The notes under the pieces are model-generated. The model saw only the letters and a list, made by a program, of their open reading frames with translations. It did not search any database and was not told the origin of the DNA. From IMG/VR virus record IMGVR_UViG_3300038393_001132, positions 1 through 48,722 of that record: a stretch of 48,722 nt of DNA. One strand, written 5' to 3'. Shown one piece after another: positions 25,736-48,722 of the stretch. The DNA is from a virus. Lineage: Duplodnaviria > Caudoviricetes. The position numbers were made by a program, and so were the translations under genes. The stretch's first letter is position 1, and every line of letters begins with the position of its first letter.

Positions 25736-25937
25736 TTTTTACATAACAACTGTCAATATTATAAATTCTGGTACTGTAATCGCCGATCCATAAATTCAAG
25801 TCATACTTTATCTTCCCTTCATAAAAATGAACTGCTACTACTGTTGCAGTCATGGGCGCTCCGTTTTCAAAGTCAACCTTTACAACATCTTTGATTTGAA
25901 CTTTAGAAGGGAGTTTCATTGATTTATTTTTACTCAT
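25728..25937 (-). CDS. Small hypothetical protein (SH3-like)
   Basis: 69 aa, beta pattern, overlaps the next gene start. Confidence 0.55.
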   Translation of the reverse strand: MSKNKSMKLPSKVQIKDVVKVDFENGAPMTATVVAVHFYEGKIKYDLNLWIGDYSTRIYNIDSCYVKNG

Positions 25938-25969
25938 ACTATTTACGAACTGCTTAGCCAGTTCCTGCT

Positions 25970-26122
25970 TTATTTAACTTTCTTCAAATTATGATTCTTA
26001 GATTTTGCTTTCGCACTGGCATTTCTTGTTGCAGAAGCGAGAATAGCACTGGCTATTACCGGCGACACGTGCTCCTTTGCTGAAATTGATGCTGCTACTT
26101 TTTTGAATCCGGGATGTTTCAT
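25970..26122 (-). CDS. Small basic phage protein (MKHPGFKKVAASISAKE...)
   Basis: 50 aa, not in ORF track; K/A/S-rich; fills the gap in the operon. Confidence 0.65.
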   Translation of the reverse strand: MKHPGFKKVAASISAKEHVSPVIASAILASATRNASAKAKSKNHNLKKVK

Positions 26123-26124
26123 AA

Positions 26125-27108
26125 TTATTTTGGTGCACCACTTGTATTTCTATAAATGGCTGCTTTAAAATCCTGTATTGTTAATGGGTTTATTCTGGCT
26201 CTTAATATGCGGTGTTGATGATCGAACTCTCTTTGCGCTCTTAATCGTTCTCCTTCGCCATAGCTTCGTCCGTTTTCCTTGTGTTTCCAGTTCATATAAG
26301 CCTCTAAGGTTGACTTCGCATAAGGGGTTATCTGGGTGGCATTATCTATCTCGCTCCCATCGCTTATGTATTCGAGAATAATGCTTGTGGCTTTAATATC
26401 ATTATGAAGTTGAATCTCATTTCTTTCGGGGATGATCGAAAACGTGTCGGTGCGGTCAACCCTTGCTCCGTAATTCTTTCCGGTGTACTCTAATCTGTCG
26501 TTCCATTGAACAGTAAACCCGTACCACGGCCATGAAGAAGTGAACTCATTTCCTACGGCCGGGAAGGGAACTTTAAGTGAAGCCACTACCGAGAATCCTG
26601 TTCCGGTACCTCCTAAATCCGTATTGGATGCACTCAAAATATCTCCATCGGTATAACCAGAGCCTTGCGAAACCAGCGTCACTATTGGTACTGTGCCTAA
26701 TGAGATTGTTATGTCAGCAGTTGCACCGCTTCCTGTTCCTCCCGTTAAGGGAACGTTAGTATAAGCCCCATTTGGGTAATTTGCTCCTGCGGTAATCTGT
26801 CCGAACTCTACGATATTTCCACTTGAAAAGTTATTTAATCTATTTATTCCCGGCCTGTTAATTAGCGGTTTTACAAATTGGCCGTTTTCTACACCTACTT
26901 TTATCCAGTCCATATAGTCGTCCGGTAGTGTAGCAGAATAATAAGAGTTGATCGGAAGTTTTTTAGTGCGGATATTCCCTATACTATCGAACGAAATCTC
27001 CTCAAAACACCTTTGGGCGTAAACAAGGAAGTCAATATAAAAGTGAATCGGGTATCTTCTCTGTAAGAGGTAACCTTTAACTACCTGATCTAATGATGTA
27101 AATTTCAT
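26125..27108 (-). CDS. Tail ring/adaptor protein with inserted Gly-rich beta domain
   Basis: LPDDYMDWIKVG and ILEYISDG ring-protein-like motifs flank an insert YTNVPLTGGTGSGATADIT...GSGYTDGD. Confidence 0.65.
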   Translation of the reverse strand: MKFTSLDQVVKGYLLQRRYPIHFYIDFLVYAQRCFEEISFDSIGNIRTKKLPINSYYSATLPDDYMDWIKVGVENGQFVKPLINRPGINRLNNFSSGNIVEFGQITAGANYPNGAYTNVPLTGGTGSGATADITISLGTVPIVTLVSQGSGYTDGDILSASNTDLGGTGTGFSVVASLKVPFPAVGNEFTSSWPWYGFTVQWNDRLEYTGKNYGARVDRTDTFSIIPERNEIQLHNDIKATSIILEYISDGSEIDNATQITPYAKSTLEAYMNWKHKENGRSYGEGERLRAQREFDHQHRILRARINPLTIQDFKAAIYRNTSGAPK

Positions 27109-27452
27109 CCGCGTTTATTTAAAGGTTCTTCACTAATCGAATCTACTCTCGTATCGGGGTACGGTGTTGGCATTAATAAGGAAACTACTTCGGCTACTAC
27201 CTGTGCTGCCATATCAGCCGTCAAAGGAAGTATGTCGAAATCTCCGTATTTATCGATGTCCATAACGATCAACTGCATATCAACTGAATTAACATTCCTG
27301 CCCTGCGGGTCGGTGATGTCCTCGGTAAAGACTACATACCCGTCTCTCACTTCATACCCCACGAATCCTAAAAGATTGTTTATTAAGTTCTGTTCCTTAA
27401 TAAAAGCCGCTTGTCCGTTTTGTAGTGGTATATATTGTTCGAGTACTGTCAT
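27105..27452 (-). CDS. Tail ring protein, probable C-terminal half
   Basis: 115 aa; ATGA overlap with the upstream ORF. Confidence 0.55.
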   Translation of the reverse strand: MTVLEQYIPLQNGQAAFIKEQNLINNLLGFVGYEVRDGYVVFTEDITDPQGRNVNSVDMQLIVMDIDKYGDFDILPLTADMAAQVVAEVVSLLMPTPYPDTRVDSISEEPLNKRG

Positions 27453-28066
27453 ACGGTTTGTATTTTTAGGTACTCTCCTGCTACCAGTGGAGTATTTAAA
27501 GTGATTAATGTAGAAGCGGTAACTTTGGTGAAGAAATTACTGCCGTCCAAAGGATCGATACCAGGGATAGGCACGTTGCCACGAATAATATTTACGTCCT
27601 GATTGAGAAACGCATTACTTGAAATAGTTGTGCTTCCTGCTGAAAGACCTACTACAACCTCTGTAGTTCCCTTGATTACTACGCTCGAACCTATCACGCT
27701 TTCAATGGTTACAATCGTTACCGGATCAATAACCGGAACAGGTAAATTTCCAGACGCGGCCGGCCCGACAAAAAACACTCCCATATTTCGTCTTAAACTT
27801 ATCGGCATTGCGGGGAGTTGTACCCTGCTTAATCCCTTATAAGAACCGACGGGTAGCTCATCATAACAAGCAAGGACTAAACCCTCAGGGATAGTTTCAT
27901 CACTTGGCAGAGTTACTGAAACGTATTCGGTCTTTAATTTCCGATTGATTGCTTGCTGAAGGTGCGCTTGTATCATACGTGGCTCAAACTTCTTTCCTGC
28001 GCTCGGGGATCCACCTTCAAGTAGTGAAGCGATAGTTTCGTATAAATATTGTTTGGTTACCAGCAT
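27449..28066 (-). CDS. Tail ring protein, probable N-terminal half plus beta-rich appended domain
   Basis: 205 aa; LPAMPISLRRNMGV followed by a V/T/I-rich module. Confidence 0.55.
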   Translation of the reverse strand: MLVTKQYLYETIASLLEGGSPSAGKKFEPRMIQAHLQQAINRKLKTEYVSVTLPSDETIPEGLVLACYDELPVGSYKGLSRVQLPAMPISLRRNMGVFFVGPAASGNLPVPVIDPVTIVTIESVIGSSVVIKGTTEVVVGLSAGSTTISSNAFLNQDVNIIRGNVPIPGIDPLDGSNFFTKVTASTLITLNTPLVAGEYLKIQTV

Positions 28067-28728
28067 TATATATCTTGGGAGTTTTTAAGTTCTGTAAATT
28101 GGATTAGCATTTCATCGTTCATAGGTACTCCGGCAAGCTGTAATGTCTTAATTAGAATCTTATTAATGGAGGATTCAGACCATTCAAGTTGTACCGAATC
28201 TGTCTGGTTGTAAGTTTTACTCCTTCCTGATCCTGTAAAGGCATAAACCGGAACCAAAGGCCGTCTTAGGTAATAAACATATCCTGTCATGGCAGCTTCC
28301 GGGTAGAGTTGAATCTTTCCAGGCTGTAATTCAAGTCCTACCGGGTCGTTAATAGTGGGAGCGAGTATTTGTGAATCCCTTCTTTCGGTTATTTCGTCCT
28401 CACTTAGTAGTTTTACGGGCTTGTATCTTGTTCTGCCATCATAATACGAGATTGATACTGTGGGAAGTGTTTCGTAACACGGGTTCTTGGTAGGATCAGT
28501 AGGAAGAGTGATGATACCGTCAGTTCCGGTAGTGAAATCAAGCTTAGCAGAGAAAGGAGAAAGCGGATCAGTTGATTTTTGGTTCTTCCCGTACATTGGG
28601 ATGCAGGAAACAAACCACCACATCTGGGCACGGTCAGCAAGATTGTCTATTTCGGGGTCAGAAATCCATCCGCCCTGTTCTTTATTGAGAAAGTACCTTA
28701 CTGTGTCGTGAAAAACTTTTAAATCCAT
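28066..28728 (-). CDS. Head-tail adaptor/ring protein
   Basis: LNKEQGGWISDPEID..AQ N-terminus and YLRRP motif, as in crAss-like ring proteins. Confidence 0.7.
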   Translation of the reverse strand: MDLKVFHDTVRYFLNKEQGGWISDPEIDNLADRAQMWWFVSCIPMYGKNQKSTDPLSPFSAKLDFTTGTDGIITLPTDPTKNPCYETLPTVSISYYDGRTRYKPVKLLSEDEITERRDSQILAPTINDPVGLELQPGKIQLYPEAAMTGYVYYLRRPLVPVYAFTGSGRSKTYNQTDSVQLEWSESSINKILIKTLQLAGVPMNDEMLIQFTELKNSQDI

Positions 28729-28730
28729 AT

Positions 28731-29267
28731 TTAAACTTTAGCCAACACCCTGCGACTTGGAATTATATAATGCTCCTTGCCGAAAATGTTGTATTTCTGA
28801 ACAAATCTTGGCTCAAAGCATACAACATCTCGCACGTTGCAGCTAAGGTTACTTGGCATCGCCTTTATGATGCCGGTTTCTTCATCTATTGGTTCTAAGA
28901 GTACGTTTTCTGTAACCATTCTTAACTCATCGCCTACTACGCAGAAAACCTCTCCCATTGCTACCTTCCAATACTCTTTTCCTTCATAGAGAATCAGATT
29001 TTTATAGATAGGAGTATCATTATCCGGTTGTAATTTGTACTCGAAAATGATGCTGTAACTAAAAAAAATCTTATCTCCTTTGTTTACAGTGCCGGTGATC
29101 TTCCTGTGAAGGTCACTTTTAACTCTTACGGGCGGCATGACTACGGTTCCTTCTAATGTAGAGTACTCTTCGGGATGCCATGTAGTGTCAACGATTATGG
29201 CTCCATCCTTATCTTGAAATTTCTTTTCTATCTCTGTAAGAATGTAATTTTCCGCCGCCTGTATCAT
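28731..29267 (-). CDS. Tandem double-domain GroES-like protein
   Basis: Domain 1: NYILTE/GAIIVD/STLEGTVV/VNKGDKIFF/EGKEY...EVFCVV. Domain 2: ENVLLEP/TGII/VRDVVCF/IFGKEHYIIPSRRVLAKV, with no mobile loop. Confidence 0.75.
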   Translation of the reverse strand: MIQAAENYILTEIEKKFQDKDGAIIVDTTWHPEEYSTLEGTVVMPPVRVKSDLHRKITGTVNKGDKIFFSYSIIFEYKLQPDNDTPIYKNLILYEGKEYWKVAMGEVFCVVGDELRMVTENVLLEPIDEETGIIKAMPSNLSCNVRDVVCFEPRFVQKYNIFGKEHYIIPSRRVLAKV

Positions 29268-29273
29268 TAGAAC

Positions 29274-29321
29274 CAAAATTCTAACATTTTTAGTATTTTA
29301 TTTTGAAGTTTATAGTTATAG
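29274..29321 (-). promoter_or_regulatory. Putative late promoter, tail/ejection operon
   Basis: CTATAACTATAAA...GAATTTTG spanning 48 bp; ATG 6 nt downstream. Confidence 0.7.
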
Positions 29322-29332
29322 GCGTAAATTTG
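29302..29332 (+). promoter_or_regulatory. Bacteroidota primary-sigma promoter
   Basis: TTTG-N19-TAAATTTG, matching the -33/-7 consensus. Confidence 0.65.
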
Positions 29333-29349
29333 GTAAACTATTTAGCTAT

Positions 29350-29721
29350 ATGGTCAAACCAAGAGAGATAAGATACGGAAATTGGTTTAAAGTTGCAGGT
29401 CGCTATACATATATAGCGCACTGGAAAGACTTACGTGATTTGAGTTATTATGAACAAATTCCTTTAACGCCTGAAATATTAGAGAAGTGCGGGTTTGTTA
29501 TTAATAGAACCGGTGGACACTATAACAATATTTACTTATTCGATGGTGAAGAATGTAAATTTGAAATTTCAGATTCAAGCAAGGTTTCAAAATTCAGGTT
29601 TTGCTATGAATATTTCAAAGATGAAAATGGTAAAAAATATTTTAGAGGATTAAATTATTTGCATGAATTACAAAATTTAATCTTCATTTTAACAGGTAAG
29701 GAACTTGAAATAAATTTATGA
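29350..29721 (+). CDS. Hypothetical Bacteroidota phage protein
   Basis: EIRYGN...IPLTPEILEKCGF...YLHELQNL..LTGKEL pattern. Confidence 0.7.
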   Translation: MVKPREIRYGNWFKVAGRYTYIAHWKDLRDLSYYEQIPLTPEILEKCGFVINRTGGHYNNIYLFDGEECKFEISDSSKVSKFRFCYEYFKDENGKKYFRGLNYLHELQNLIFILTGKELEINL

Positions 29722-29948
29722 CACCTCTTGGAGAACATATCAGAATAACTCAACCCGAAGAAATAAATAAATCTTACTTCATAGTAGAGAAAGAAGCGGT
29801 ACAAAAAGCCGACGTTATTTCTGTTTCACGTGACATTCAAATCGAATATAAGACGGTGTTTTTCTGGACAGACAGGGCGATATTTATTAAAGGAGAATGG
29901 TTTATTAATACCGAAATGATACTCGGAGGTTATTTGGCCGTTGCGTAA
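29718..29948 (+). CDS. Degenerate GroES-like protein
   Basis: MTPLGEHIRIT...FIV...KADVISVS...TVFF...IKGEWFINTEMILG aligns by eye with Cpn10. Confidence 0.5.
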   Translation: MTPLGEHIRITQPEEINKSYFIVEKEAVQKADVISVSRDIQIEYKTVFFWTDRAIFIKGEWFINTEMILGGYLAVA

Positions 29949-30394
29949 CCCTGATTTATAATAGTGTGTTTCCCGTTATCATTGTAATCAAGGTAACTTT
30001 GAGGATAAGAAAATGAAGTAGTTCTTTGGCCGGGAATGCCATCAACAACACTTAATGATTTCAGAAAATTATCTTTATTGGTTCCCGGACCAAACCCCAT
30101 CTTCCCATCCTGAACTTGTTTTAAAGCATAATTACGGTAGTTAGCGAAGTCCTGTTGAATAGGAACGATCATGTCTTTGGTTAGTGGTGTATCGGGGTGT
30201 TCTTTGCGGTACTCGTCAATCATTTTAAATCCTAACCCGTTGTGATCGAGTGAAGGGTGTCCTTTAAGACCTTTTTGTTGAAGAAACTGAACATAATCGT
30301 TCCATGCCTGTCTTATTTTATTATCCACTTTAGGCGGTGTTACCGGATCACCTGTTTGAGTAGTTAGTGCTGCTTCTGGTATTAACTGTTGCAT
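29930..30394 (-). CDS. Hypothetical late protein
   Basis: 154 aa, directly behind a late-promoter motif. Confidence 0.65.
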   Translation of the reverse strand: MQQLIPEAALTTQTGDPVTPPKVDNKIRQAWNDYVQFLQQKGLKGHPSLDHNGLGFKMIDEYRKEHPDTPLTKDMIVPIQQDFANYRNYALKQVQDGKMGFGPGTNKDNFLKSLSVVDGIPGQRTTSFSYPQSYLDYNDNGKHTIINQGYATAK

Positions 30395-30398
30395 AGAA

Positions 30399-30445
30399 CA
30401 AAATTAAACAGTAAACCAATAAATAAGGAGGATTTTTAGTTATAG
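30399..30445 (-). promoter_or_regulatory. Putative late promoter
   Basis: CTATAACTAAAAA...TAATTTTG spanning 47 bp; ATG 4 nt downstream. Confidence 0.65.
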
Positions 30446-30571
30446 AAAAGCACCCTATTGCTAAGGTGCTCTTGGGGCGCATTAGGCAAACGCTTAACGG
30501 CCGATCAACCACTTTGTTTTTACGGAACAAAGAAACCGACCTGGTCGTGACAAAACAGGATTTTAAGAAAT

Positions 30572-30784
30572 TTATATTATCTTCAAATCTTTTAGAACCT
30601 TCCAAATAAAAATAATCGGCCCCGCTATAATAGCAGAAAGGTATAATACGAATATTACAAACTCCTCACTGAAAATAGAACTGTTGATTATGTATTTAGC
30701 TTCTTTTCTTTTAAGCCCTCTATATACGATTATACACTCTGCAATAGAAAATAAGCACCAAATAGTTATTATTCTACTTATCAT
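30572..30784 (-). CDS. Small two-TM membrane protein
   Basis: 70 aa, two hydrophobic segments. Confidence 0.55.
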   Translation of the reverse strand: MISRIITIWCLFSIAECIIVYRGLKRKEAKYIINSSIFSEEFVIFVLYLSAIIAGPIIFIWKVLKDLKII

Positions 30785-30798
30785 AATATTTTTAAAAA

Positions 30799-30889
30799 AT
30801 TGCCTTATTTCGCAGCATCCCTATAAAGTTATCTGGATGTAACCACCAATTATATGTCCAAAATATATTGCTCTGCTTATTCGTGCAAT
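30799..30889 (-). ncRNA. Structured RNA motif, copy 1
   Basis: ATTGC-ACGAATAA-GCAG-[33 nt]-CATCCAGATAA..GGATG-CTGC-GAAATAAG-GCAAT; second copy at 34564. Confidence 0.65.
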
Positions 30890-30974
30890 ATCTTCACTGC
30901 CGGTTCCCGCTTCACAAAAATAAATCACAAACGTTGTTAGAGTTTAAATTAGTAAATCCGGCAGCGAAAGAAGG

Positions 30975-31259
30975 TTAATATTTTAAGGTCAAAAACTTCA
31001 CAACGTTCATTTGAGCGTTAAGTATTTCACATACAGCATGAGAAAATAACCTTTGAGAAAATTGCGATGTTTCCCTGCTATTGTTTTCATCGTTTAATAA
31101 GTCAGCAAGATCAGAGCAAAGTCTTTTTGCTTTACTTACCTTGTCGTCATTGGAAGGATTAAAGGTTAACCCTACTAATTTTTCACCGAACGTTAATTGT
31201 TTTTGTTCTGTTTTTTCGGAAGGAACGTCTTTTGATTCGACCATTGGTTGTTCTAACAT
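30975..31259 (-). CDS. Acb2/Tad1-like helical-hairpin protein (candidate nucleotide sponge)
   Basis: FGEKLVGLTFNPSNDDKV..AK...RLFSHAVCEILNAQMNVVK; similarity judged by eye only. Confidence 0.45.
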   Translation of the reverse strand: MLEQPMVESKDVPSEKTEQKQLTFGEKLVGLTFNPSNDDKVSKAKRLCSDLADLLNDENNSRETSQFSQRLFSHAVCEILNAQMNVVKFLTLKY

Positions 31260-31289
31260 AATTGTTTTGTTTTTATAATGATTAATTGG

Positions 31290-32066
31290 TTACAGGGTTT
31301 TTAGGAATTTATACAGTTCATAGTTCCACTTTGCATCTGATAAGGCATTGTGCTCGTTGGTTTGTTTTGGATAATTAGGGAGTAGTTTTAACTTCTTTTC
31401 TGCTGCCTCAATGAGGTGTTGTTCTTGGAGGCAATATTTGAACACAGCTTCGTCAAACATTTGTTTGAGATCACGACAATACATCGGAAATCCTTCTGGC
31501 AAATCAATCATCCTACCAAATAGAGAACAGAATAAAACCCAATCATAATCAGCGAAATAACCATAAAACTCTATTGGCGAATCAGTATCCCATCCGTTTC
31601 TTTTTCCTCTTGAAATAAATTCATCGATGCCACCATTCCATTCACTCCATACATCAGCCCAAACAAATAGCATTATTTCTGTTGCTATTTTTTTATTTGG
31701 CTTGCCGTTCCTCTTTAAGAACTTTTCGAAATTCTTATAACTAAAAATACCATTAGGAATATCCGGTAATTCGAGATTTGCTTCTTTATGGCCTTTATAA
31801 AGCCATTCTTGAAATATTGGCTTCAAAACATTATCTCTTAACCAATAAACCTTTCTTGGTGGTAAGTTTCGTTGGTCGCCACTACCATAATCCAAGTCGT
31901 ACTTATTCCAAACTTTCTTTAGATCAAACTCATTTGAAATAGCATAATAAGAACCTCCATCTTCACATACAATTCCAATAGAAATTAAATCAATAAAATG
32001 CCTTTTCTTTCCAAATAAAGGCTTGTGAAAGCCTTCGATAAATTCTGTGTCAATAAAATATTTCAT
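31290..32066 (-). CDS. 3'-5' exo(ribo)nuclease, DEDDh (Rv2179c/DUF5051-like)
   Basis: FIDTEF, LISIGIV, ADYDW, HNALSDA motifs. Confidence 0.85.
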   Translation of the reverse strand: MKYFIDTEFIEGFHKPLFGKKRHFIDLISIGIVCEDGGSYYAISNEFDLKKVWNKYDLDYGSGDQRNLPPRKVYWLRDNVLKPIFQEWLYKGHKEANLELPDIPNGIFSYKNFEKFLKRNGKPNKKIATEIMLFVWADVWSEWNGGIDEFISRGKRNGWDTDSPIEFYGYFADYDWVLFCSLFGRMIDLPEGFPMYCRDLKQMFDEAVFKYCLQEQHLIEAAEKKLKLLPNYPKQTNEHNALSDAKWNYELYKFLKTL

Positions 32067-32075
32067 AGTCTTATT

Positions 32076-32438
32076 TTAAAATGGCAAATCAGACTGTTCT
32101 TCCACAACCTCCGCTTCGGTAATAAATTCTTCTTTTTTAGCGGCGCTGTTTAGTTTTTCAATCTTCCAGGCATCCAGATTAGTAAAGTAGGACGTTTTAC
32201 CGTCTTTCTCCCATTTAGACCCTCTTAAATTGAAGTGTACTTTTACTTCATCACCGATATTAATATCGTCCAGTACACTTGTTCTTTCATTGGAGGCCTG
32301 TAATTTGATTAATTGTGAGTAGGTCTTGTCTTTTACCTGCTCTGTTACTTCCACTACAAATTCGCGTGTTTTAAATTTCTCTGTACGCTGTTGGGTTTCT
32401 GTTTTAAATACTAATCTTCCGGTTAATTCGTAACTCAT
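32076..32438 (-). CDS. DUF3127-family ssDNA-binding-like protein
   Basis: FKTREFVV...GDEVKVHFNLRG..W....YFTNLDAWKI with acidic DLPF tail. Confidence 0.85.
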   Translation of the reverse strand: MSYELTGRLVFKTETQQRTEKFKTREFVVEVTEQVKDKTYSQLIKLQASNERTSVLDDINIGDEVKVHFNLRGSKWEKDGKTSYFTNLDAWKIEKLNSAAKKEEFITEAEVVEEQSDLPF

Positions 32439-32439
32439 T

Positions 32440-32643
32440 TTATTTTTGTTTTAATTTTTTCTTAGCGCATTCAGGACAATAAACATTCCCGCTCTTTGTT
32501 GCTCTCCAACCTTCGGCAAAATAAAAATCGGTTGCATTATCGGATTCTGCGCCACGCACACTACTTTGTTTGCCACAACTTGAACAGGTAATTGTGCATT
32601 CCGTTTCTATTGAATCATACAAATCGAATGGCTCGTATTTCAT
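32440..32643 (-). CDS. Small zinc-finger protein
   Basis: CSSC...GW...YCPEC. Confidence 0.65.
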   Translation of the reverse strand: MKYEPFDLYDSIETECTITCSSCGKQSSVRGAESDNATDFYFAEGWRATKSGNVYCPECAKKKLKQK

Positions 32644-32805
32644 TGATATATCAGTTTATTTTTTGTTGAATAATTTTTGTTTCTGCGCATAAACGTATAT
32701 CTCTAATTCAGCCTTAATTTTTAAATATTCAATATTGCAACTATATTTGAATCTTATAAGTTCAAATAACATTTGAAAGAGTTTTGTCATTGATATATCA
32801 GTTTA
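32640..32805. repeat. 19-bp direct repeat flanking a 44-aa ORF (32656-32790, minus)
   Basis: TCATTGATATATCAGTTTA at 32640-32658 and 32787-32805. Confidence 0.85.
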
Positions 32806-33000
32806 AATGTCTTTAATTAGCCATTGATATATTTTTTCGGCATCTTCAAGAACTATTTCTAAGCTTGAGGTGCTACCGTATTTGATATCTACCGTCTTTT
32901 CAAGGGCTAATCTCCTTGCACCGGCTTTAAAATGTTGCTTTACAACTTCCTCTGATTGTTTTACAATAAAATCTGATCCTTCAATTAATTCTTGTTTCAT
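32803..33000 (-). CDS. Hypothetical protein (MKQELIEG...)
   Basis: Start at 33000 preferred because a separate ORF occupies 33011-33178. Confidence 0.6.
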   Translation of the reverse strand: MKQELIEGSDFIVKQSEEVVKQHFKAGARRLALEKTVDIKYGSTSSLEIVLEDAEKIYQWLIKDI

Positions 33001-33010
33001 GTTTTTTATT

Positions 33011-33178
33011 TTAAAAGGTTCTTTTAGTCTCACCACATTTCTTGCATTGAAGCAGTTCCGGTGTTGTTGTTTTAAATCCAACAAGTTGCCCATTTTCAAC
33101 TTTTACCTGACGTATTTCAGCGCATTCCCACTCATGTAAACAGGGCTTTGTTTTTCTAAACAAATTCTTTAAATTCAT
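33011..33178 (-). CDS. Small zinc-ribbon-like protein
   Basis: 55 aa, not in ORF track: MNLKNLFRKTKPCLHEW...QCKKCGETKRTF. Confidence 0.6.
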   Translation of the reverse strand: MNLKNLFRKTKPCLHEWECAEIRQVKVENGQLVGFKTTTPELLQCKKCGETKRTF

Positions 33179-33183
33179 TTTTG

Positions 33184-33387
33184 TTATTTTTTAGTAAATC
33201 TTCCGGTTTTAGGGTCTCTAACAATTACTTCCCCGTTGTTTCTTAATTCATCCAGAATATCATCTATTCCAAAAGCTAAAATTGAAGTCAGGAATGACAC
33301 TTCAGATGCGGTAAACTTTCCCATGAATACAAGAAAAATAGAAGAAACAAGTGATAGAATGGCGAGTATAATGCAGAAGTATCTCAT
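33184..33387 (-). CDS. Small membrane protein
   Basis: Hydrophobic N-terminal half, RDPKTGRF tail. Confidence 0.55.
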   Translation of the reverse strand: MRYFCIILAILSLVSSIFLVFMGKFTASEVSFLTSILAFGIDDILDELRNNGEVIVRDPKTGRFTKK

Positions 33388-33854
33388 GGCAAAAGGTCTT
33401 TATTGATTTTAGGACGTTTGATTGTAGCGTTTAAGTGCTCCATTATTTCATCCATATCTTTAGGAGTAATAGAACATTCATCACTCAAGGTCGGCTCAGC
33501 GTTTAAGGCATCCTGTATATTATCAAACACTACATCATCTCCTATTTTAGTATTAACTACTTCTCTTTCATCGAGATATTTTACTTCCGGTATGATACCA
33601 TCCAATTTTATTTCTCTTTCATCCAATTCTTTTAAAAGTTTGGTAGAACCTTCTATTAATTTCTCATTTGTAATAACAATATCTTTCCCAATCTTTCTGA
33701 TACCGGATACATATTTTTCAGGGATATTATTTAATTTACCTGTCAGGAATTTACCGATACTCCCCTGCCCCATTCCTAATTTCTTCTCAATAAAATTCTT
33801 GGTTACTCCGCTGTCAAGGATTGCTTGTATTTCCTCTTTGGTTATTGGCTTCAT
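33384..33854 (-). CDS. HTH-containing protein
   Basis: GVTKNFIEKKLGMGQGSIGKFL resembles an HTH. Confidence 0.55.
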   Translation of the reverse strand: MKPITKEEIQAILDSGVTKNFIEKKLGMGQGSIGKFLTGKLNNIPEKYVSGIRKIGKDIVITNEKLIEGSTKLLKELDEREIKLDGIIPEVKYLDEREVVNTKIGDDVVFDNIQDALNAEPTLSDECSITPKDMDEIMEHLNATIKRPKINKDLLP

Positions 33855-34483
33855 ATTTTTGATTTTGATCTTTCATAGACTGCATCTAAAAACTTAGATG
33901 TTGAACTTCCATTATCCCTGAATAGATTGAAGATTTCATGCCAACTTAGGAATGGCTTGTTTCTGATTATATAACATGATCTTGCTTCATCAGTTGAAAA
34001 ATATTTCCATGCAGAGTTTAAAGGTTTTGAAAATTGACTTCTTTCGTTCATACGTTTGACCGTATCTTCTCTTGTTTCCCATTGCGCTTTAGTTAAGACT
34101 GCATACAGAGTTTGATTTTCGTCTGTTATTGCTACTTCATCTTCTGTTGTAAACAGGGGCGCTTTTGACTTATTAACCTCATTTAATAAAAATCCTGTAT
34201 CATTACAGATTACTGACATTCCACAATTAGTTAAATAAAACTTTGAAATATCTCCTACATCTAATTTATCTCTAACCGTGAAAATCTCACCATCGGAAAG
34301 TCGTTTAACTGAATGTATTGCGAAATTATCTTTGTAAGAAAGAATTTCGTACTCTTTATTTGGTTGCTTTGATTTCTTGAACTCATCTAAAAGTTTTTGC
34401 ACGTTACATAAGTAATGCGGTGGTAGTGGTAGTTTTGCGTATAGCATTTCTTTCACTAATTCATCAGTCCATTGAAATTCCAT
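33851..34483 (-). CDS. Hypothetical protein
   Basis: 210 aa; TAGATTTG -7 element upstream on the minus strand (34501-34508). Confidence 0.7.
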   Translation of the reverse strand: MEFQWTDELVKEMLYAKLPLPPHYLCNVQKLLDEFKKSKQPNKEYEILSYKDNFAIHSVKRLSDGEIFTVRDKLDVGDISKFYLTNCGMSVICNDTGFLLNEVNKSKAPLFTTEDEVAITDENQTLYAVLTKAQWETREDTVKRMNERSQFSKPLNSAWKYFSTDEARSCYIIRNKPFLSWHEIFNLFRDNGSSTSKFLDAVYERSKSKI

Positions 34484-34563
34484 TGCTAATTAATTTAGAA
34501 CAAATCTAACCAATATTTACTAAAGAATATAGTTTTTATCTAACTTTATTTTACCTTTGAGAA

Positions 34564-34655
34564 ATTGCACGAATAAGCAGTGATAGCTACATAGTCAGTA
34601 ATGAGACACCGAACATCCAGATAAATTTTATTTGGGTGCTGTGAAATAAGGCAAT
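34564..34655 (+). ncRNA. Structured RNA motif, copy 2
   Basis: Same scaffold as 30799-30889; begins 4 nt after TACCTTTG (34552-34559). Confidence 0.65.
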
Positions 34656-34671
34656 TTTTAAAAAACATAAT

Positions 34672-35088
34672 ATGACAAAGAAGAAAAATAATTGGGATGA
34701 CAAGAAAAGTTTTCACGTAGAAGTACCTCTTTTTAAGGTAGATATTCTATTCCTGTGCGATTTGTCGGAGACTGAAATTCCTGTTCATATAAAAAGATTC
34801 GCAGGAGAAGAAAACTTTAAAGAATTTGACCAGAGGGCAATTAAAGGATGGGATCACATCACTAACGAAGGAAGGAAAATAGATTTTCTTGGCGGGTTTA
34901 TCGTACTGGCAAAAAACAAGAATGGCAACTTCAGGGAATTTGTAAGCATACTGGTGCACGAGATAACCCATGTAACTCATTACTTGTTAAGAGACCGAAG
35001 GATACCATTAACCGTACATACGGAAGAACTGTACTGCTATCTTACTGAATATCTAACAGAACAAGCATTGATTAAACTGTATGATTAA
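34672..35088 (+). CDS. HExxH metallopeptidase-like protein
   Basis: VHEITH...EELYCYL. Confidence 0.65.
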   Translation: MTKKKNNWDDKKSFHVEVPLFKVDILFLCDLSETEIPVHIKRFAGEENFKEFDQRAIKGWDHITNEGRKIDFLGGFIVLAKNKNGNFREFVSILVHEITHVTHYLLRDRRIPLTVHTEELYCYLTEYLTEQALIKLYD

Positions 35089-36885: not shown

Positions 36886-37395
36886 TATTCGCTAATTTAT
36901 TTAGTATTATCCCCTATTTTTTAGCAATTTCAACGTAAGCGTTTAGCAAAACGTTAAAGTTTTGTGAAAGCTATAATACTTTGATTGTGGGTGTTATAAA
37001 ACCCATTATCTTTGTTCTTGTAATCGGGAGCGCACCAATCAAGAGCGCAAAAATTAGGTTCTCATTTTTTCCTCTTATTATCTCCCTTTTATTCCGGTTG
37101 ACGGGCATGGTACAGGCTCAATATCTACAGTAATTCCGGCGGCGGTTTGTAGATAGGTCACACAAGGTTTTACATTTTGACCTTACAAGTAAGCGGGAGA
37201 AATCGCTGAAAACGTAAAAGAAGCAGGTAAACGCTAACAAGCGAAGTAACTGCGTACAAATTAAACGGTAAAAGTCATTTATATAAGTTTAAGACTATAA
37301 ACAAACTTTTTATTTAAACAGGCTGCAAAGGTTCAAGACCTTACTAAATTCGTTATTTATGCAGCCGCTATTTTTTCATTATTAAAACAATCGCC

Positions 37396-39595: not shown

Positions 39596-42500
39596 ATGAA
39601 AACAGAAATTTACAAAGGTCATACAATAGTTTTTCAGCATGGTTTTTACTGGACTTTAGGAACCATGTTTAAAACCATGAAAGCTGCTAAAACTATTATT
39701 GACGAATTAATAGAAAACTAAAATTATGAAACATTACACAGATCAGGAAGTTTTGAAGTGGGTAGAATCACAAGAAACTTTATTTAAATCACTGTCACGT
39801 GGTTTTGGTTATGAGGCAATACAGGCACGGCTAAAACTAAATGAGATTAAAAAACTCACACCAGAAGAAAAAATGAAATTTGGCCGCCTGAATTTAAAGA
39901 CTATTCGAAAAGAAAGATTGTATTTAGATCAACTACCAAAATAAAATTTATAAAAACTAAAATCATGAAAATTTATCAAGAAGAAACAATTTACCCTGTG
40001 GGAACAAAAGTAAAAGTAATTAAAGCTATTGATGAAACCTGTTTACCTGAACAAATAGGAAAAACAGGTGAAGTAATAGAACTGAACGCCAACGGAGAAA
40101 CAGGAAACTATGAAGATTGCCCGCTTCATATCGTTAAGTTTAGCGACGGCAGCGGACATGATGGCTTTTGGTTTGAAGAACTAACCATATTATAAAAACT
40201 AAAAAAAACAATTATGAAACAGGAAAACAAAACTTACAAAATTCAAGATCGCGAAGCCGGAAACGTAATTGAAACCGGATTAACTTTTGAAGATGCCGAA
40301 AGGATTCTAAAAGAGTTTGAAGAGAGCGACAAAAAAGAAGGAATTTATGAACCTGATTTTTACGAAATTAAAGAAGAAATTTAACCCACCAACCGGCAAG
40401 CATAAGAAGCCACAGCGCAGCCGGTTACTAATTAATCACAATTTAAAAAATAAAATCATGGAAAAAGAAATAACATTAACAGTAAGGTTTTTAAACAAGG
40501 TTCTTGCACCAAGAACCGGAAAAATATTAAGAGTTACAGAAAGTAACAATTCTTATTCTTATACTGGTGCAACAAAAAAAGAATGTATTGAAAAAGCAAA
40601 AAAGGCAATGAGATATAATTCTTCTTATAAAAAGACATGGAGTATTAACGAAACACCCGCCAATTAGACGGGTGCACTTGACAGCAAATCACAATGGAAT
40701 AAAGCCGGATAAAACCGGCAATATTCCTGATTTAAAAGCAAGATAGTAATTTTTAATCGAACCGTTAAGGAATTATTTAACAATCTAAAATTTATTACAA
40801 TGAGCACAAAAGTATCAAACAAAACAGCAGAAAGAGGTTATTCTTTCATTATTGACGGTAAGCACTTTCAAAAAGAAGAAATTTTTGAAGGCAGAAACGA
40901 TTCGAATTTCTTTAATGATATTGAAGAAGAAGTAAAAGACAGATATGGCAACAGGTTAAAGAAAATAGATCATACATCACGGATCATACATCTTGAATAT
41001 TAATTCTTTTTAATCGCACCAACGCCCCGAAAGGGGTAAGGAATTTATAAACCTTAAAAAATATTAAAATGCAAAAAGAAATTGTAAACAGAATAAAGAA
41101 AGTTGCAACTGAATGCTACTTGCATATGTACGATGTTACTGGGAATCATTCAGATAAACATAATTACAGGGAATGCGTAATTAATGCAATCGAAAATAAA
41201 ACCTCTTTAGAAAGATGCGGGATTCCCAAAAACCTTTCTGATGAAATACAAGAAATATGCACTAATGAAGATCAAAGAATTGCCTTCTTCGCTTTTCTCT
41301 TCACTGACAGAACCGGCAGAACTTTGAATGAGATTCTTTTAGACGCAGGTTTAACTTATCAAGAAATAGAAAAATTAGATAACGGAGAAATTTAATCGCA
41401 CCAACGCCGGAGCAATCCGGCAAAGGAAATTTATAAAAAGCGGCCGTATTAGAAGCGAATGAAATTCTATTCAGAAACATTGCTCAACTGATTGAATACC
41501 GTAAAAAAATAGCAACTGAAATTATTAATTGCAAAGACGAAGAATCTAACAAATACCTGAGAAGTGTTTATGAAAGTTGCGAATGGCACATAAAGGAGAT
41601 TTTAGGCCTTTAAGGTTAATTTAACAGTAAAACAAACAAAAAAAATGTATTACACAACCACCACCGCAACCGTTCAACCATGAAGCTACCAACCTTTGTA
41701 TTTATTGCGCCTAACCAGTCCGACCCGTCGATGGGTAGCGGTTTTATTCTCCACACGAAAGACCCTTACGAGTTAGGGCGTATCATTAAATTAAAACCCG
41801 ATCCCTACGCGATAACTAACTATAAGAACGAATTTAAACCTCTCATATATTCACAGGTAGAAAATTATTCTATTCTTATTGTATTTGCCGGAACTTTGGG
41901 AGGAAATAAAATAAGAGTAAACGGGCAAGATTGGGAAAGAGATTTACAGCATTTGTACGACCAAATGAGCTACTGGTTTTTAGATGAAAAGATTGCCAAC
42001 AATAAAGGGTATTATAAAAGATATATTATCTAAAACAAGAATTGGAATTATTATTTTAAACTATAAATTAAACAAAAATGAAAACATTATTAGTTCCAGC
42101 ATTTGATTATGAAAATAAATTTACTGGCTACAAAAAAGTAAAAGTAAAAAACAAATTAGACCACAAAGACGAAAATAAAGTACTCGGCTTTTTGCCTGGT
42201 ATTCCCCAGGGTTATTGCCCTGCGTTATCAAAAATAACAGAAACAAAAGAACCTATTGAGATAACAAGGTTTTATGATATTAGGCAACGAGGGGTAAAGA
42301 AACTAAAAAACTACTTTATAACTGTTCTTTAAAATATATAAAATGAAAATTAATTCAAAAAACCTTTTTGTTCATCTGCCAACAAATAAAATTTACGAGT
42401 GCATGGGTAATGATGAAGGGCATGTTTGGTACGAAGGAGAAGAAACAGAACTACAAAAATTTGATAGTGGTGATTGTGAAAAAATCCCTGAAATATTTGA

Positions 42501-43094: not shown

Positions 43095-43141
43095 CTATAA
43101 CTATAAAGTTTTTTCCTGAAAATCTAACCGTTGTTACTTTG
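43095..43141 (+). promoter_or_regulatory. Putative late promoter of groEL
   Basis: CTATAACTATAAA...ACTTTG spanning 47 bp; ATG 4 nt downstream. Confidence 0.7.
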
Positions 43142-43145
43142 TGAA

Positions 43146-44705
43146 ATGAAGCAAAAAATCATTTTCGCAAAGGAAGCAAGGGAAGAATTGCTAACCGGAA
43201 TTAACTTAGCCGCTAACGTTGTGAGAGTAACTCTTGGCCCAAGAGGGAAAAATGTTATCTCCCACGTAATACATGGGGGCGTAAGATCAACCAAAGACGG
43301 CGTTTCAGCCCTCAACGAAGTAAGACCGGATAATCAACTACACAACGCGGGTGTAAAAATCATTCGCCAGGCTGCCCAAAAGACAGCCGACGAAGCGGGT
43401 GATAGCACCACTTCTACTACTATTCTCACTCAATCCATGTGTAATGATGCCCACGAAGCTCTGAACGCCGGGAGAAGTTCAGTAGAGCTAAGAAAAGAAA
43501 TCGAACAAGCTACCCTAAAATGCACAGACTGGATCAAAACTAACGCTATCCCTATTGCGGGAGATACCGAAAAAGTGCGAGCAATAGCCACTATATCAGC
43601 TAATAATAATTCCGAAATAGGAAATCTTATCGCGGACGCTTTTAAGGAGATTGGCGAAACCGGCGTTATTACGCTGGAAGATTCCAAATCTGACAGGTCG
43701 TATATTGATATTTTGGGAGGTTATCATCTTCGCAGAGGTTGGGTAAGCCCTTATTTTAAGACAGACGAAGTAAAAAGTGAATGTGTGTTAATCGATCCGC
43801 TTATCCTCCTCTACGATAAGAAAATATCTAAAGTCGTGGACTTAATGGAAGTTCTAAAATATACCGTTCGCGATCCCTCTAATCCTCAATCCCTTCTAAT
43901 TATCGCGGCCTCCTGCGAAGCGGAAGCTCTCGGAACCCTCATCTACAATAAACTAAAGGTCGGGATGAATGTTTGCGTCATCCAAGCTCCCGAACAGGGC
44001 ATGAAACGACTGGAAGTAATGCAGGACATCGCGATATTCACCGGAGGGCAGGTGATCAGTGAAGACCAGGGAACCGCCCTTGATAAACAAAACTTTAAAC
44101 CGGAGTTCTTAGGCACGGCCAGTAAAGTAATCGTAAAACAGGATTCCTGTGTGATAGTTAACGGACAAGGCAACCCAGACAAGGTCGAAGAACGTCAAAA
44201 GCAGATCAAAGAAATGATAAGTGAAGCCCCCAGCGACTACGAAAAAGAGTACCTAAGAAAAAGAGCCGGCAGCATAGGGCGTGGTGTAGCAGTTCTTTAT
44301 ATCGGTGCTCCGACTGAAATCGAAAAGGGCGATAAAAAAGACCTCGCAGAAGACGCGATTTTAGCAACCCGTTCAGCCATCGAAGAGGGATTTCTTCCCG
44401 GAGGCGGCGTAGGTTTTATTCGTTGTGCTGAAACCTTTAAAGAAGATAACATCGTATTTAAAGCCCTCTATAAACCGTTCCTTCAGATTCTCGCCAACAA
44501 CGAAGAAGCTAACGACATCCTAACGAAAGTAATCGAAGGAAAAGACGACTACGGATATAACGCTTTTACCGGCCAGTTTGGAAACTTAATTGAACAGGGC
44601 GTTATCGACGCGGCCAAAGTCATACGTTGTGCTATTGAGAACGCCGCTTCTGTTGCTGCTCAATTCTGCGCCACTGAAGTCTTAATAAGTGAGATTGAGG
44701 ATTAA
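43146..44705 (+). CDS. groEL: Phage chaperonin GroEL (Cpn60)
   Basis: VTLGPRGKN, TKDGVS, AGDSTTSTT, ATISANN, EDAILATRSAIEEG, PGGGV, GVIDAAKV; no GGM tail; ATG at 43146. Confidence 0.95.
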   Translation: MKQKIIFAKEAREELLTGINLAANVVRVTLGPRGKNVISHVIHGGVRSTKDGVSALNEVRPDNQLHNAGVKIIRQAAQKTADEAGDSTTSTTILTQSMCNDAHEALNAGRSSVELRKEIEQATLKCTDWIKTNAIPIAGDTEKVRAIATISANNNSEIGNLIADAFKEIGETGVITLEDSKSDRSYIDILGGYHLRRGWVSPYFKTDEVKSECVLIDPLILLYDKKISKVVDLMEVLKYTVRDPSNPQSLLIIAASCEAEALGTLIYNKLKVGMNVCVIQAPEQGMKRLEVMQDIAIFTGGQVISEDQGTALDKQNFKPEFLGTASKVIVKQDSCVIVNGQGNPDKVEERQKQIKEMISEAPSDYEKEYLRKRAGSIGRGVAVLYIGAPTEIEKGDKKDLAEDAILATRSAIEEGFLPGGGVGFIRCAETFKEDNIVFKALYKPFLQILANNEEANDILTKVIEGKDDYGYNAFTGQFGNLIEQGVIDAAKVIRCAIENAASVAAQFCATEVLISEIED

Positions 44706-45922: not shown

Positions 45923-46169
45923 TTTGTTAGTCTTTTTGTTAGCGTTTGCAAATTTTTATCTTTTTTATTTTTCTTAAATTCTTGAAAGCCTTATCCCTAT
46001 TGACTTTCAGAAGAGCGGAAGACGGGACTCGAACCCGCTACCTACAGCTTGGGAAGCGTCAGGTAGTGCCCTTTACTTTTATTAAGTGATTGATTTTCAA
46101 TAGTTTTATTTTTTCGCTTCCCTGTTTTTTACTCATTTTTGATGGATTTTGTTAGCGTTTTTGTTAGCG
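45922..46169. mobile_element. attP: tRNA-Gly(CCC) 3' half core with arm-type repeats and IHF-like site
   Basis: Core about 46013-46057 (minus GCTTCCCAAGCTGTAGGTAGCGGGTTCGAGTCCCGTCTTCCGCTC); TTTTGTTAG(CG) pairs at 45922/45934 and 46147/46159; WATCAANNNNTTR match at 46083-46095. Confidence 0.85.
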
Positions 46170-48398: not shown

Positions 48399-48722
48399 AT
48401 GATAAAAATTGAAATCAAAAACAGGTGGACTGGCAAAATTCTTTTTGAATATTCAAAAGAAAACAACACTCTGTTAGAAACCTTATTAGAAGCTATTAAA
48501 AGAGGTGCCGATTTGAGCGATGCCGATTTGAGCGATGCCAATTTGAGAGGTGCCGATTTAAGCGATGCCAATTTGAGCGATGCCGATTTGAGCGATGCCG
48601 ATTTGAGCGATGCCGATTTAAGCGATGCCAATTTGAGCGATGCCGATTTGAGCGATGCCAATTTGAGCGATGCCAATTTGAGAGGTGCCGATTTAAGCGA
48701 TGCCAATTTGAGCGATGCCGAT
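48399..48722 (+). CDS. Pentapeptide-repeat protein (partial)
   Basis: [18 protein letters not shown]... then A(D/N)LS(D)/ANLRG repeats; 15-bp DNA repeat of about 14 units from 48507. Confidence 0.92.

What the first reader, a model, noticed from the sequence alone, without database searches (positions are those of the whole stretch)
30799..34655. Two-copy structured RNA with constant scaffold and an exactly 33-nt variable insert
Seen: copy 1 (30799-30889, minus) and copy 2 (34564-34655, plus) share ATTGC-ACGAATAA-GCAG-[33 nt]-CATCCAGATAA...GG(A/G)TG-CTG(C/T)-GAAATAAG-GCAAT. Stem changes keep pairing (G-C to G-U, U-A to U-G), and the purine-rich internal loop is invariant. The unrelated inserts are the same length (AGCAATATATTTTGGACATATAATTGGTGGTTA; TGATAGCTACATAGTCAGTAATGAGACACCGAA). 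Each copy ends 14-16 nt before an ATG of unrelated genes, and copy 2 starts at a predicted TSS. I do not recognise the family. Inference: a guide/antisense RNA scaffold with a programmable segment, a protein-binding leader or riboswitch, or a ribozyme.
Basis: partly seen in the sequence, partly recalled or inferred. Interest (0 to 1): 0.85.

Follow-up and report, generated by a model that had tools for sequence, protein, structure and literature searches.

The report
Portable three-way-junction phage leader RNA
The two look-alike stretches belong to a small, uncatalogued family of predicted folded RNAs in phages that likely infect Bacteroidota; it sits in front of unrelated genes and likely helps decide whether transcription runs on into them, and its '33-base insert' is a hairpin arm of 31-45 bases, likely not a programmable guide.

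Summary
Both copies lie where stated, with 33-nt inserts. Nine more copies were found in other contigs. Inserts run 31-45 nt, 33 in 5 of 11, and hold a covarying hairpin plus a 6-10-nt linker. The element is therefore a predicted three-way-junction RNA with a purine-rich 8x8 loop. No Rfam family matches. No target for the variable parts beat controls. Ten of 11 copies have a same-strand gene downstream, from 8 unrelated groups. A U-run (9 of 11) or a terminator hairpin (2 of 11) follows directly. Copy 2 starts at the predicted +1 of a promoter box kept in a relative. Relatives carry the same sites empty, and the element occurs in two unrelated phage types. Best reading (0.4): a portable cis-acting leader that gates read-through, placed like HK022 put RNA but folded differently. 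Rivals: stand-alone small RNA (0.2), new self-cleaving ribozyme (0.15). No expression or activity data were obtained.

The parts
30799..30889 (-). Copy 1 of the element (91 nt). P1 30885-30889 with 30799-30803; 8x8 loop 30877-30884 with 30804-30811; P2 30873-30876 with 30812-30815; P4 30835-30839 with 30816-30820, closing a 14-nt cap
30840..30872 (-). 33-nt 'insert' of copy 1: short joint, hairpin P3 (two pairs changed on both sides against the family consensus), 7-nt linker
30794..30798 (-). U-run directly after P1, then an A-rich stretch before the ATG
30572..30784 (-). 70-aa ORF, ATG 14 nt after copy 1; no Pfam or PHROG match
30890..30970 (-). Hairpin B: second conserved stem with an AT-rich top, directly upstream of copy 1. 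Also in L135 (with the element) and in L154 and L155 (without it, followed directly by the U-run)
   Evidence: z -3.0
30495..30566 (-). Motif C: conserved non-coding stretch after the 70-aa ORF; also after the ORF that follows the element in L133
   Evidence: (64 nt, 89%)
34552..34559 (+). Predicted Bacteroidota sigma-A -7 box TACCTTTG; predicted +1 at 34564; kept as TATATTTG at the same site in L155
34564..34655 (+). Copy 2 of the element (92 nt). P1 34564-34568 with 34651-34655; loop 34569-34576 with 34643-34650; P2 34577-34580 with 34639-34642; P4 34614-34618 with 34634-34638, closing a 15-nt cap
34581..34613 (+). 33-nt 'insert' of copy 2: degenerate P3 and 10-nt linker; the most divergent insert of the family, weakly alignable only to L139
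34656..34659 (+). U-run after P1, then an A-rich stretch before the ATG
34672..35088 (+). 138-aa ORF (phrog_1365, unknown function), ATG 16 nt after copy 2. The same gene follows the element in L135 and follows hairpin B without the element in L155
35085..35555 (-). Convergent 156-aa ORF whose end overlaps the end of the 138-aa ORF; no family match; relatives in L132, L135, L154, L155

Best explanation
The element is a predicted 89-104-nt three-way-junction RNA that likely acts in cis on the growing transcript and likely sets how much transcription passes the U-run or terminator right behind it into the next accessory gene. Shown from sequence: a closing stem P1, a purine-rich 8x8 loop, stem P2 continuous with hairpin P4, and a side hairpin P3 with a variable loop and linker; a place at a predicted transcript start, at a stop codon, or after hairpin B; a U-run or terminator directly 3'; filled and empty versions of the same site. 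Inferred: the 8x8 loop folds as two back-to-back UAA/GAN-like motifs that dock on a helix, and the compact surface is bound by host RNA polymerase or a host elongation factor. A host partner is inferred because the same scaffold occurs in two unrelated phage types. Whether folding promotes termination (attenuator) or read-through (put-like) is not decided. Also inferred: recombination between copies swaps the genes on either side, which would explain the patchy spread.
For: Fold: 93.1% of cells paired and 5 of 8 P3 pairs changed on both sides; 0/500 shuffles reach the covariation score. The sense strand folds more stably than the antisense strand in 10 of 11 copies. Orientation: a same-strand ORF follows 10 of 11 copies, 9 of them within 14-39 nt; for L136 none could be called before the contig ends. 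The 3' end: at least 4 T in the 8 nt counted from the last base of P1 in 9 of 11, a terminator hairpin directly after in L136 and L138; TTT+AAAA precedes only 6 of 42 window gene starts, 2 of them these copies. The 5' end: promoter box 4 nt upstream for copy 2 and 19 nt for L138; same-strand stop codon within -13 to +6 nt in L127, L133, L136, L137, L139, L140 alike by homology to L137. L136 has the same promoter region as L138 with a 78-aa ORF in between, box 285 nt upstream; HK022 putL lies just after its promoter and putR about 270 nt downstream (PMC9378689 passage). In L127 the gene before the truncated ORF is Arc-like (phrog_582, E 0.0012, weak), and its relatives end right at the element in L133 and L137. 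Filled and empty sites: L135 against L155 and L154; R1 finds no copy in the whole records of the latter two. Reassortment: L135 joins the hairpin-B flank of copy 1 to the P4 type and downstream gene of copy 2. Two phage types: the window's terminase hits Flavobacterium and Cellulophaga podoviruses; L127, L133 and L137 lie beside head maturation protease or head morphogenesis genes of another type.
Against: No transcription, structure probing or activity data. Folding z-scores of single copies are modest, -0.8 to -2.2. P1, P2 and P4 show no change on both sides, only G-U changes and mismatches, so these stems are predicted, not shown by covariation; itself warns that related sequences can beat its shuffles. 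P1 is only 5 bp, AU-rich, and is broken to 3 pairs in L136 and L138, so it is a weak terminator stem. In at least 5 copies (copy 2, L132, L135, L137, L140) only one ORF follows before a convergent gene, which gives a processive antiterminator little to do. Close relatives lack the element. The closed three-way fold differs from put's two stem-loops. Sequence invariance of the 8x8 loop and P2 was partly imposed by my search patterns. Copies are not independent (L137/L140; L136/L138).
Confidence: 0.4

Rival explanations
1. It is a discrete small RNA of about 95-135 nt, made from its own promoter or cut from a 3' end, which acts in trans as a decoy for a host protein. The downstream gene is only read through from it.
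For: Copy 2 spans predicted +1 to a U-run. L138 reads promoter box, 14 nt, motif, terminator, with no ORF inside. A 3' boundary right after P1 is kept in two different ways. P4, which was not in any 5'+3' search pattern used for the nine outside copies except, is 90-100% conserved.
Against: 9 of 11 copies sit 14-39 nt before an ATG. Most have no promoter box of their own within 80 nt (7 of 11). No shared neighbouring protein. No RNA data.
Confidence: 0.2
2. It is a self-cleaving ribozyme of a new class: P3 or the P4 cap docks into the 8x8 loop to form an active site, and cleavage separates cistrons.
For: Compact size, sense orientation between genes, conserved core with variable peripheral loop and linker, patchy presence, no need for a partner in unrelated phages. 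That phage ribozymes often lie between genes is recalled, not from a call.
Against: No Rfam ribozyme model matches at E up to 10; twister-sister tested alone, 0 of 2 records. Short recalled core motifs of six known classes are absent from the sense strand of all 11 copies. I saw no consistent pseudoknot between the variable parts by eye. The strict U-run or terminator behind P1 is not explained.
Confidence: 0.15
3. It is a DNA-level site: a single-strand hairpin (attC-like) or a short mobile unit acted on by a recombinase, which moves accessory gene cassettes.
For: Filled and empty sites; reassorted flanks; a half-copy, ORF, full copy, ORF array in L139; motif C after the ORF in both the window and L133; an integrase in the window; G-T pairs favour one strand for DNA as for RNA.
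Against: No target-site duplication and no shared 5' flank (identity 0.41). The element is lost while the same ORF stays (L155), unlike a cassette boundary. No GTT/AAC attC core is visible in the sequence (core recalled). Purine-rich loop motifs and the match to a predicted +1 point to RNA.
Confidence: 0.1
4. It is a guide or antisense RNA with a constant scaffold, whose P3 loop and linker select a target, as the a' and b' regions of C4 RNA do.
For: P3 loop and linker are far more variable (0.27, 0.30) than the P4 cap (0.92). 9 of 11 inserts are 31-34 nt. Three-stem architecture.
Against: Length 31-45 nt; inherited hairpin; related linkers in related copies. Longest local matches do not exceed foreign-insert controls. 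Two-part targets in the window, L135 and L127 are at shuffle level: controls reach the observed score in 2, 15, 23 and 19 of 25 trials. No blastn-short hit below E 0.09 in 345,718 bases held. An antisense promoter box lies downstream in only 3 of 11. C4 model: 0 of 2 records. No nuclease or recombinase is a constant neighbour. Host genomes were not available, so host targets are untested.
Confidence: 0.06

Closest known systems
HK022 putL/putR RNAs (PMC9378689, passages read)
   Same: Two similar copies per temperate phage genome; about 70-100 nt; one just after a promoter, one about 270 nt downstream; acts on the nascent transcript (inferred here).
   Different: put has two stem-loops and binds the beta-prime zinc-binding domain of E. 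coli RNA polymerase. This element is a closed three-way junction in likely Bacteroidota phages, is patchy among relatives and often precedes a single gene. No activity shown.
PeSL cassettes of T4-type phages (PMC2839356, abstract and section 13 read)
   Same: Intergenic repeats between a stop codon and the start of ORFan genes; stem-loops that attenuate; recombination between copies shuffles genes.
   Different: PeSLs are promoter plus simple stem-loop, about 50 per genome. This element has a complex conserved fold, 1-2 copies per record seen, and usually no promoter inside.
SAS/ESAS repeats of cluster K mycobacteriophages (PMC3203893, passages read)
   Same: Oriented repeats just upstream of start codons of unrelated genes; inverted repeats around a variable spacer; some orthologous genes lack the site.
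   Different: ESAS are 17-bp inverted repeats proposed as binding sites, with a 13-bp start-associated box. Here the interior is a covarying hairpin arm and a second conserved hairpin.
C4 antisense RNA (Rfam RF01695)
   Same: Phage RNA with a three-stem junction and variable single-stranded parts (architecture recalled; listed as a phage motif in PMC2864571).
   Different: No model match; no complementary target sites up- or downstream.
Flavo-1 motif (Rfam RF01705)
   Same: Bacteroidota, small, multi-copy, unknown function.
   Different: No match in the window or in L127's record at E up to 10; the sequences shown in the paper's supplement are unlike this element.
Type III antitoxin and AbiF RNAs (PMC12373285, abstract and outline read)
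   Same: Structured RNA upstream of an ORF in a prophage, able to act in cis and in trans.
   Different: Those RNAs have a cognate toxin; here the downstream ORFs fall into 8 unrelated groups.

Membership tests
Any Rfam 15 family | Covariance-model match at gathering score | tested here: not met
   0 matches in the window; no credible match on the element at E up to 10 for both window copies and 7 loci
Fixed-length programmable guide RNA | Insert of constant length | tested here: not met
   31-45 nt; 33 in 5 of 11
Fixed-length programmable guide RNA | Insert of free sequence that matches a target | tested here: not met
   Conserved covarying hairpin; no target above controls in the DNA held; host genomes untested
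Fixed-length programmable guide RNA | Constant neighbouring effector gene | tested here: not met
   Neighbours vary; only L127 has an endonuclease-like ORF, matching positions 8-108 of a 171-position profile and ending inside the element
HK022 put RNA | Position after an early promoter and after the first gene | tested here: inconclusive
   Met for copy 2, L138, L136, L133, L137, L140; other copies lie after hairpin B or later genes
HK022 put RNA | Two adjacent stem-loops | tested here: not met
   Consensus fold is a closed three-way junction
HK022 put RNA | Binds RNA polymerase and suppresses pausing and termination | not testable with these tools
   Needs in vitro transcription
C4/CI antisense RNA | Model match and complementary a/b target sites nearby | tested here: not met
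Flavo-1 | RF01705 match | tested here: not met
Known self-cleaving ribozyme classes | Model match or conserved core | tested here: not met
   recalled core motifs absent from the sense strand, one twister-sister-like hexamer on the antisense strand lies in P1 and the model does not match
Known self-cleaving ribozyme classes | Self-cleavage | not testable with these tools
   Needs an in vitro assay
Metabolite riboswitch | Consistent function of downstream genes | tested here: not met
   10 ORFs in 8 unrelated groups, none with a named function
PeSL | Promoter within each cassette and tens of copies per genome | tested here: not met
   Box within 80 nt upstream in 4 of 11; 2 copies in the 48.7-kb record
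UAA/GAN internal-loop motif | UAA opposite GAN between paired stems, with A-minor contacts | tested here: inconclusive
   Each loop strand reads C-GAA...UAA-G, in line with the signature in PMC2615604 (passage); the three-dimensional fold is not testable here

The most novel reading that the evidence does not exclude
The element is a protein-independent functional RNA of a new structural class, built on a double UAA/GAN loop: either a new class of self-cleaving ribozyme or an RNA-only antiterminator for Bacteroidota RNA polymerase, which spreads between unrelated phages as a portable module.
Probability: 0.25. Interest if true: 0.85.

Novelty: new variant of a known kind. Interest (0 to 1): 0.5.

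Why it matters
It is a short, easily synthesised RNA with 11 natural variants and natural empty-site controls, so one cleavage assay and one transcription assay can decide its class. A new ribozyme class, or an RNA-only antiterminator outside enterobacterial phages, would be a real discovery and a tool for Bacteroidota genetics. In the modest case it is a new kind of start-associated cassette that shows how Bacteroidota phages gate and shuffle accessory genes. The family seems rare, and nothing is shown about function, which caps the score.

Tried and rejected
Searches for more copies. Viral contigs: 4 loci, 1 true, loop-only pattern, stopped at 120 loci of about 2300, none kept both stems, 1 locus (L127), 4 loci, 1 true, 5 loci, 1 true, 28 loci, 0 scored by R1, only L127's contig. 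Named phages and plasmids by blastn: no copy. R1 on four named Bacteroidota podoviruses: 0 of 4, with no candidate at the first look. R1 on 61 genomes of the family of L140's MAG: only that MAG, so L140's 1.7-kb contig is probably misbinned (inference). I could not search Bacteroidota genomes with R1 because no centre genome was available; only the exact pattern was scanned over genome contigs (1 hit). Expression: no RNA holder listed; this is no evidence either way. A second look at read sets around copy 1 gave no data, so variant inserts seen as indels could not be read out. Inversion of the segment between the two copies: L135 and one X15 contig (joint 30788 to 35084) have hairpin B and the element next to the convergent 156-aa gene, which an inversion could give, but L135 has no second copy at the expected other end and L154/L155 show other orders, so a dedicated invertible switch is not supported. 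Length compensation between P3 and the linker: Spearman -0.31, p 0.35. An extended P1 that competes with the terminator in L136/L138, seen by eye, was not the predicted fold. An alternative fold with two small terminal hairpins has probability 0.79 in L136 and 0.30 or less elsewhere. The sigma-70 promoter and terminator scan was at chance level. In print: five 14-19-nt strings, 0 papers; supplements of PMC10690425, 7 files searched with no hit, files 1 and 2 not searchable; supplement of PMC5737381 not readable. The unread files hold motif alignments and could contain this family. Earlier findings of this scan: none by sequence or place.


Full report
Observation. The two copies are present at the stated coordinates and share the scaffold described; both inserts are 33 nt. 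The 16-nt 5' arm occurs only at these two places in the window with up to 3 mismatches, and a covariance model built later finds no third copy. Contigs from runs X6, X11 and X12, not flagged as a possible source, read through the copies without differences (table 8), so the feature is not an assembly artefact. Rfam gives no match at gathering score in the window and only scattered weak matches at E up to 10.

The host sequence. The window is a virus record, 66% complete by CheckV, with portal, terminase, GroES/GroEL-like genes and an integrase. Its terminase matches 87 named records, 68 of them Flavobacterium and 15 Cellulophaga phages, at about 28-31% identity in the best rows; two Cellulophaga records that match the window's RNase H-like gene by blastn are classed as Pachyviridae. 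A Bacteroidota host is therefore inferred. Twelve runs hold half or more of the region's words, all soil or rhizosphere metagenomes, 5 of them possible sources.

The family. Pattern scans gave nine further full copies: L127 (viral contigs, 1 true of 4 loci), L132, L133, L135, L136, L137, L138, L139 (metagenome contigs, 8 of 8 true, one of them the same contig as L127) and L140 (genome contigs). Looser patterns in viral contigs added nothing. L139 also holds a shortened copy with the 5' arm, a simple hairpin and a changed 3' loop strand (33.4 bits). The copies are not all independent: L137 and L140 are near-identical, L136 and L138 are close. L127, L133, L137, L139 and L140 lie on the opposite strand between head morphogenesis and head maturation protease genes of a different phage type, so the element crosses unrelated phage groups.

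The insert is not a fixed-length guide. Lengths are 33, 33, 33, 33, 37, 45, 33, 32, 34, 31, 32; the patterns allowed 21-51. Eight of 11 inserts carry ATGTA...TACAATG, a hairpin (P3) whose upper pairs change together, and copy 1 changes two lower pairs on both sides. Counted on alignment A2, 93.1% of cells pair, 5 of 8 P3 pairs change on both sides, and 0 of 500 shuffles reach the covariation score; the tool warns that related sequences can beat these shuffles, and P1, P2 and P4 show only one-sided changes or mismatches. Mean pairwise identity is 1.0 for the 5' strand of P4 and 0.92 for its cap, which were not in the patterns that found the nine outside copies, against 0.27 for the P3 loop and 0.30 for the linker. 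The invariance of the 8x8 loop and P2 is partly built into those patterns. No target was found: longest local matches are no longer than those of foreign inserts, two-part targets score at shuffle level in the window, L135 and L127, and blastn-short over 345,718 bases held gave nothing below E 0.09. Host genomes could not be searched.

Anatomy. P1 (5 bp), an 8x8 purine-rich loop, P2 (4 bp), then a three-way junction with P3, a 6-10-nt linker and P4, which continues P2 with no unpaired base on the 3' side. The sense strand is the more stable in 10 of 11 copies, with modest z-scores of -0.8 to -2.2. Both loop strands read C-GAA...UAA-G. A passage of PMC2615604 gives ccUAAg/uGAagg as the UAA/GAN signature and describes it as a GNRA-like internal loop that makes A-minor contacts with helices. 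I read the loop as two such motifs back to back; this is inference, not a tested fold.

Context. A same-strand ORF follows 10 of 11 copies, 9 within 14-39 nt and L138 at 98 nt behind a terminator; for L136 the contig ends too soon. These 10 ORFs form 8 unrelated groups, none with a named function. Directly after P1 come at least 4 T in 8 nt in 9 copies and a terminator hairpin in L136 and L138. Upstream there are three settings. First, a promoter box: TAnnTTTG lies at -12 to -5 in Flavobacterium (PMC9723704 passage), which puts +1 on the first base of copy 2 and 14 nt before the L138 copy; the box is kept with changed middle bases in L155. The box occurs 55 times in the window, so position and conservation carry this claim, not the match alone. 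Second, a stop codon within -13 to +6 nt (L127, L133, L136, L137, L139; L140 by homology). Third, a long hairpin (hairpin B in copy 1 and L135, another in L132 after tRNA-Phe).

Filled and empty sites. L155, 92-94% identical to the window over 25923-30453, has hairpin B followed directly by the U-run and the 138-aa gene, with no element; L135 has hairpin B, the element and the same gene; L154 has hairpin B and the U-run without the element. R1 finds no copy in the whole records of L154 and L155, which are 66% and 25% complete. L155 also keeps the promoter of copy 2 but has neither element nor gene behind it. L135 combines the 5' flank of copy 1 with the P4 type and gene of copy 2, which is what a crossover inside the element would give. 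There is no target duplication. One X6 contig joins an L132-like hairpin straight to motif C without element or ORF (loose end at 30566, compared by eye; a single contig).

Mechanism. The constant features are strand, fold and a transcription stop signal right behind the closing stem; the variable features are the genes on both sides. I therefore favour a cis-acting element on the nascent RNA that sets read-through, bound by a host component, and spread by recombination between copies (0.4). Its placement resembles HK022 put RNA, with putL just after the promoter and putR about 270 nt downstream (PMC9378689 passages); L138 and L136 show these two placements on the same promoter region. Against a processive antiterminator: at least five copies have one ORF before a convergent gene, relatives lack the element, and the fold differs. 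An attenuator is equally possible, though P1 is a weak stem. The promoter-motif-stop layout of copy 2 and L138 keeps a stand-alone small RNA open (0.2). A new ribozyme class cannot be excluded by sequence (0.15); known classes do not match. A DNA recombination site (0.1) and a guide RNA (0.06) fit less well. All mechanistic steps are inferred; none is shown.

Comparison and novelty. It works, by position, like put RNA, PeSL cassettes (PMC2839356, abstract and section 13) or SAS/ESAS repeats (PMC3203893 passages), but fails the tested membership features of each, and of C4 and Flavo-1. Five sequence strings were found in no paper of the library and in none of 7 searchable supplement files of PMC10690425 (I read only these searches and the listing); two of its files and the supplement of PMC5737381 could not be read and could hold this motif. 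PMC9974457 was seen as passages only and PMC12373285 as abstract and outline.

Verdict. A real, uncatalogued, rare structured element of likely Bacteroidota phages. What remains is a compact predicted RNA with a distinctive loop, natural variants and natural empty controls, whose class can be decided by simple assays. Interest 0.5.

Noticed in passing
window 30890-30970 (-); L135 5100-5180, L154 about 6680-6750, L155 about 1555-1612: Hairpin B is a second conserved non-coding element: a GC-rich stem with an AT-rich variable top and a G-rich bulge, whose basal pairs differ between the four copies yet pair. In L154 and L155 a U-run follows directly. No Rfam match.
   Followed up: partly
window 30495-30566 (-); L133 285-348: Motif C, shared by two unrelated phage types, follows the ORF behind the element in both. 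By eye it could form a small hairpin and an H-type pseudoknot with G-U changes on the minus strand. A terminator-like hairpin follows at about 30446-30473.
   Followed up: partly
window 40754-40790, 41011-41050, 41393-41435 (+); L135 near 622, 972, 1233 (-): Repeated intergenic motif TAATCG(C/A)ACC after stop codons in the small-gene arm, in several cases followed by a short GC-rich hairpin with a GCAA or GAAA loop. The 10-mer alone is not above chance in the window, but the longer context is shared with L135.
   Followed up: partly
L139 102-167 (+): Shortened copy with the same 5' arm, a single hairpin in place of P3 and P4, and an A-richer 3' loop strand, at the site where L137 and L140 have a full copy; it hints that P1, loop and P2 are the minimal unit.
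   Followed up: partly
L127 405-761 (-): 118-aa endonuclease-like ORF that matches only the first two thirds of phrog_2340 and ends at a stop codon inside the element's 5' loop strand.
   Followed up: partly
window 37090-37210; L136 1-124: A long non-coding stretch shares two short blocks with L136; not analysed.
   Followed up: no
window 48456-48710: Array of 15-nt tandem units at the end of the record.
   Followed up: no
window about 46010-46060: A stretch beside the integrase start looks by eye like the reverse complement of a tRNA 3' half, a candidate attP; ARAGORN calls no tRNA in the window.
   Followed up: no
window 30968-34480: Contigs of related phages skip whole genes in this region, for example 31296-32097 and 32806-33391, so it is a highly modular segment.
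   Followed up: no
window 43131-44705 and 28731-29276: Phage-borne GroEL-like and GroES-like genes lie far apart; the best named matches of the former are Bacteroides phages at 43%.
   Followed up: no
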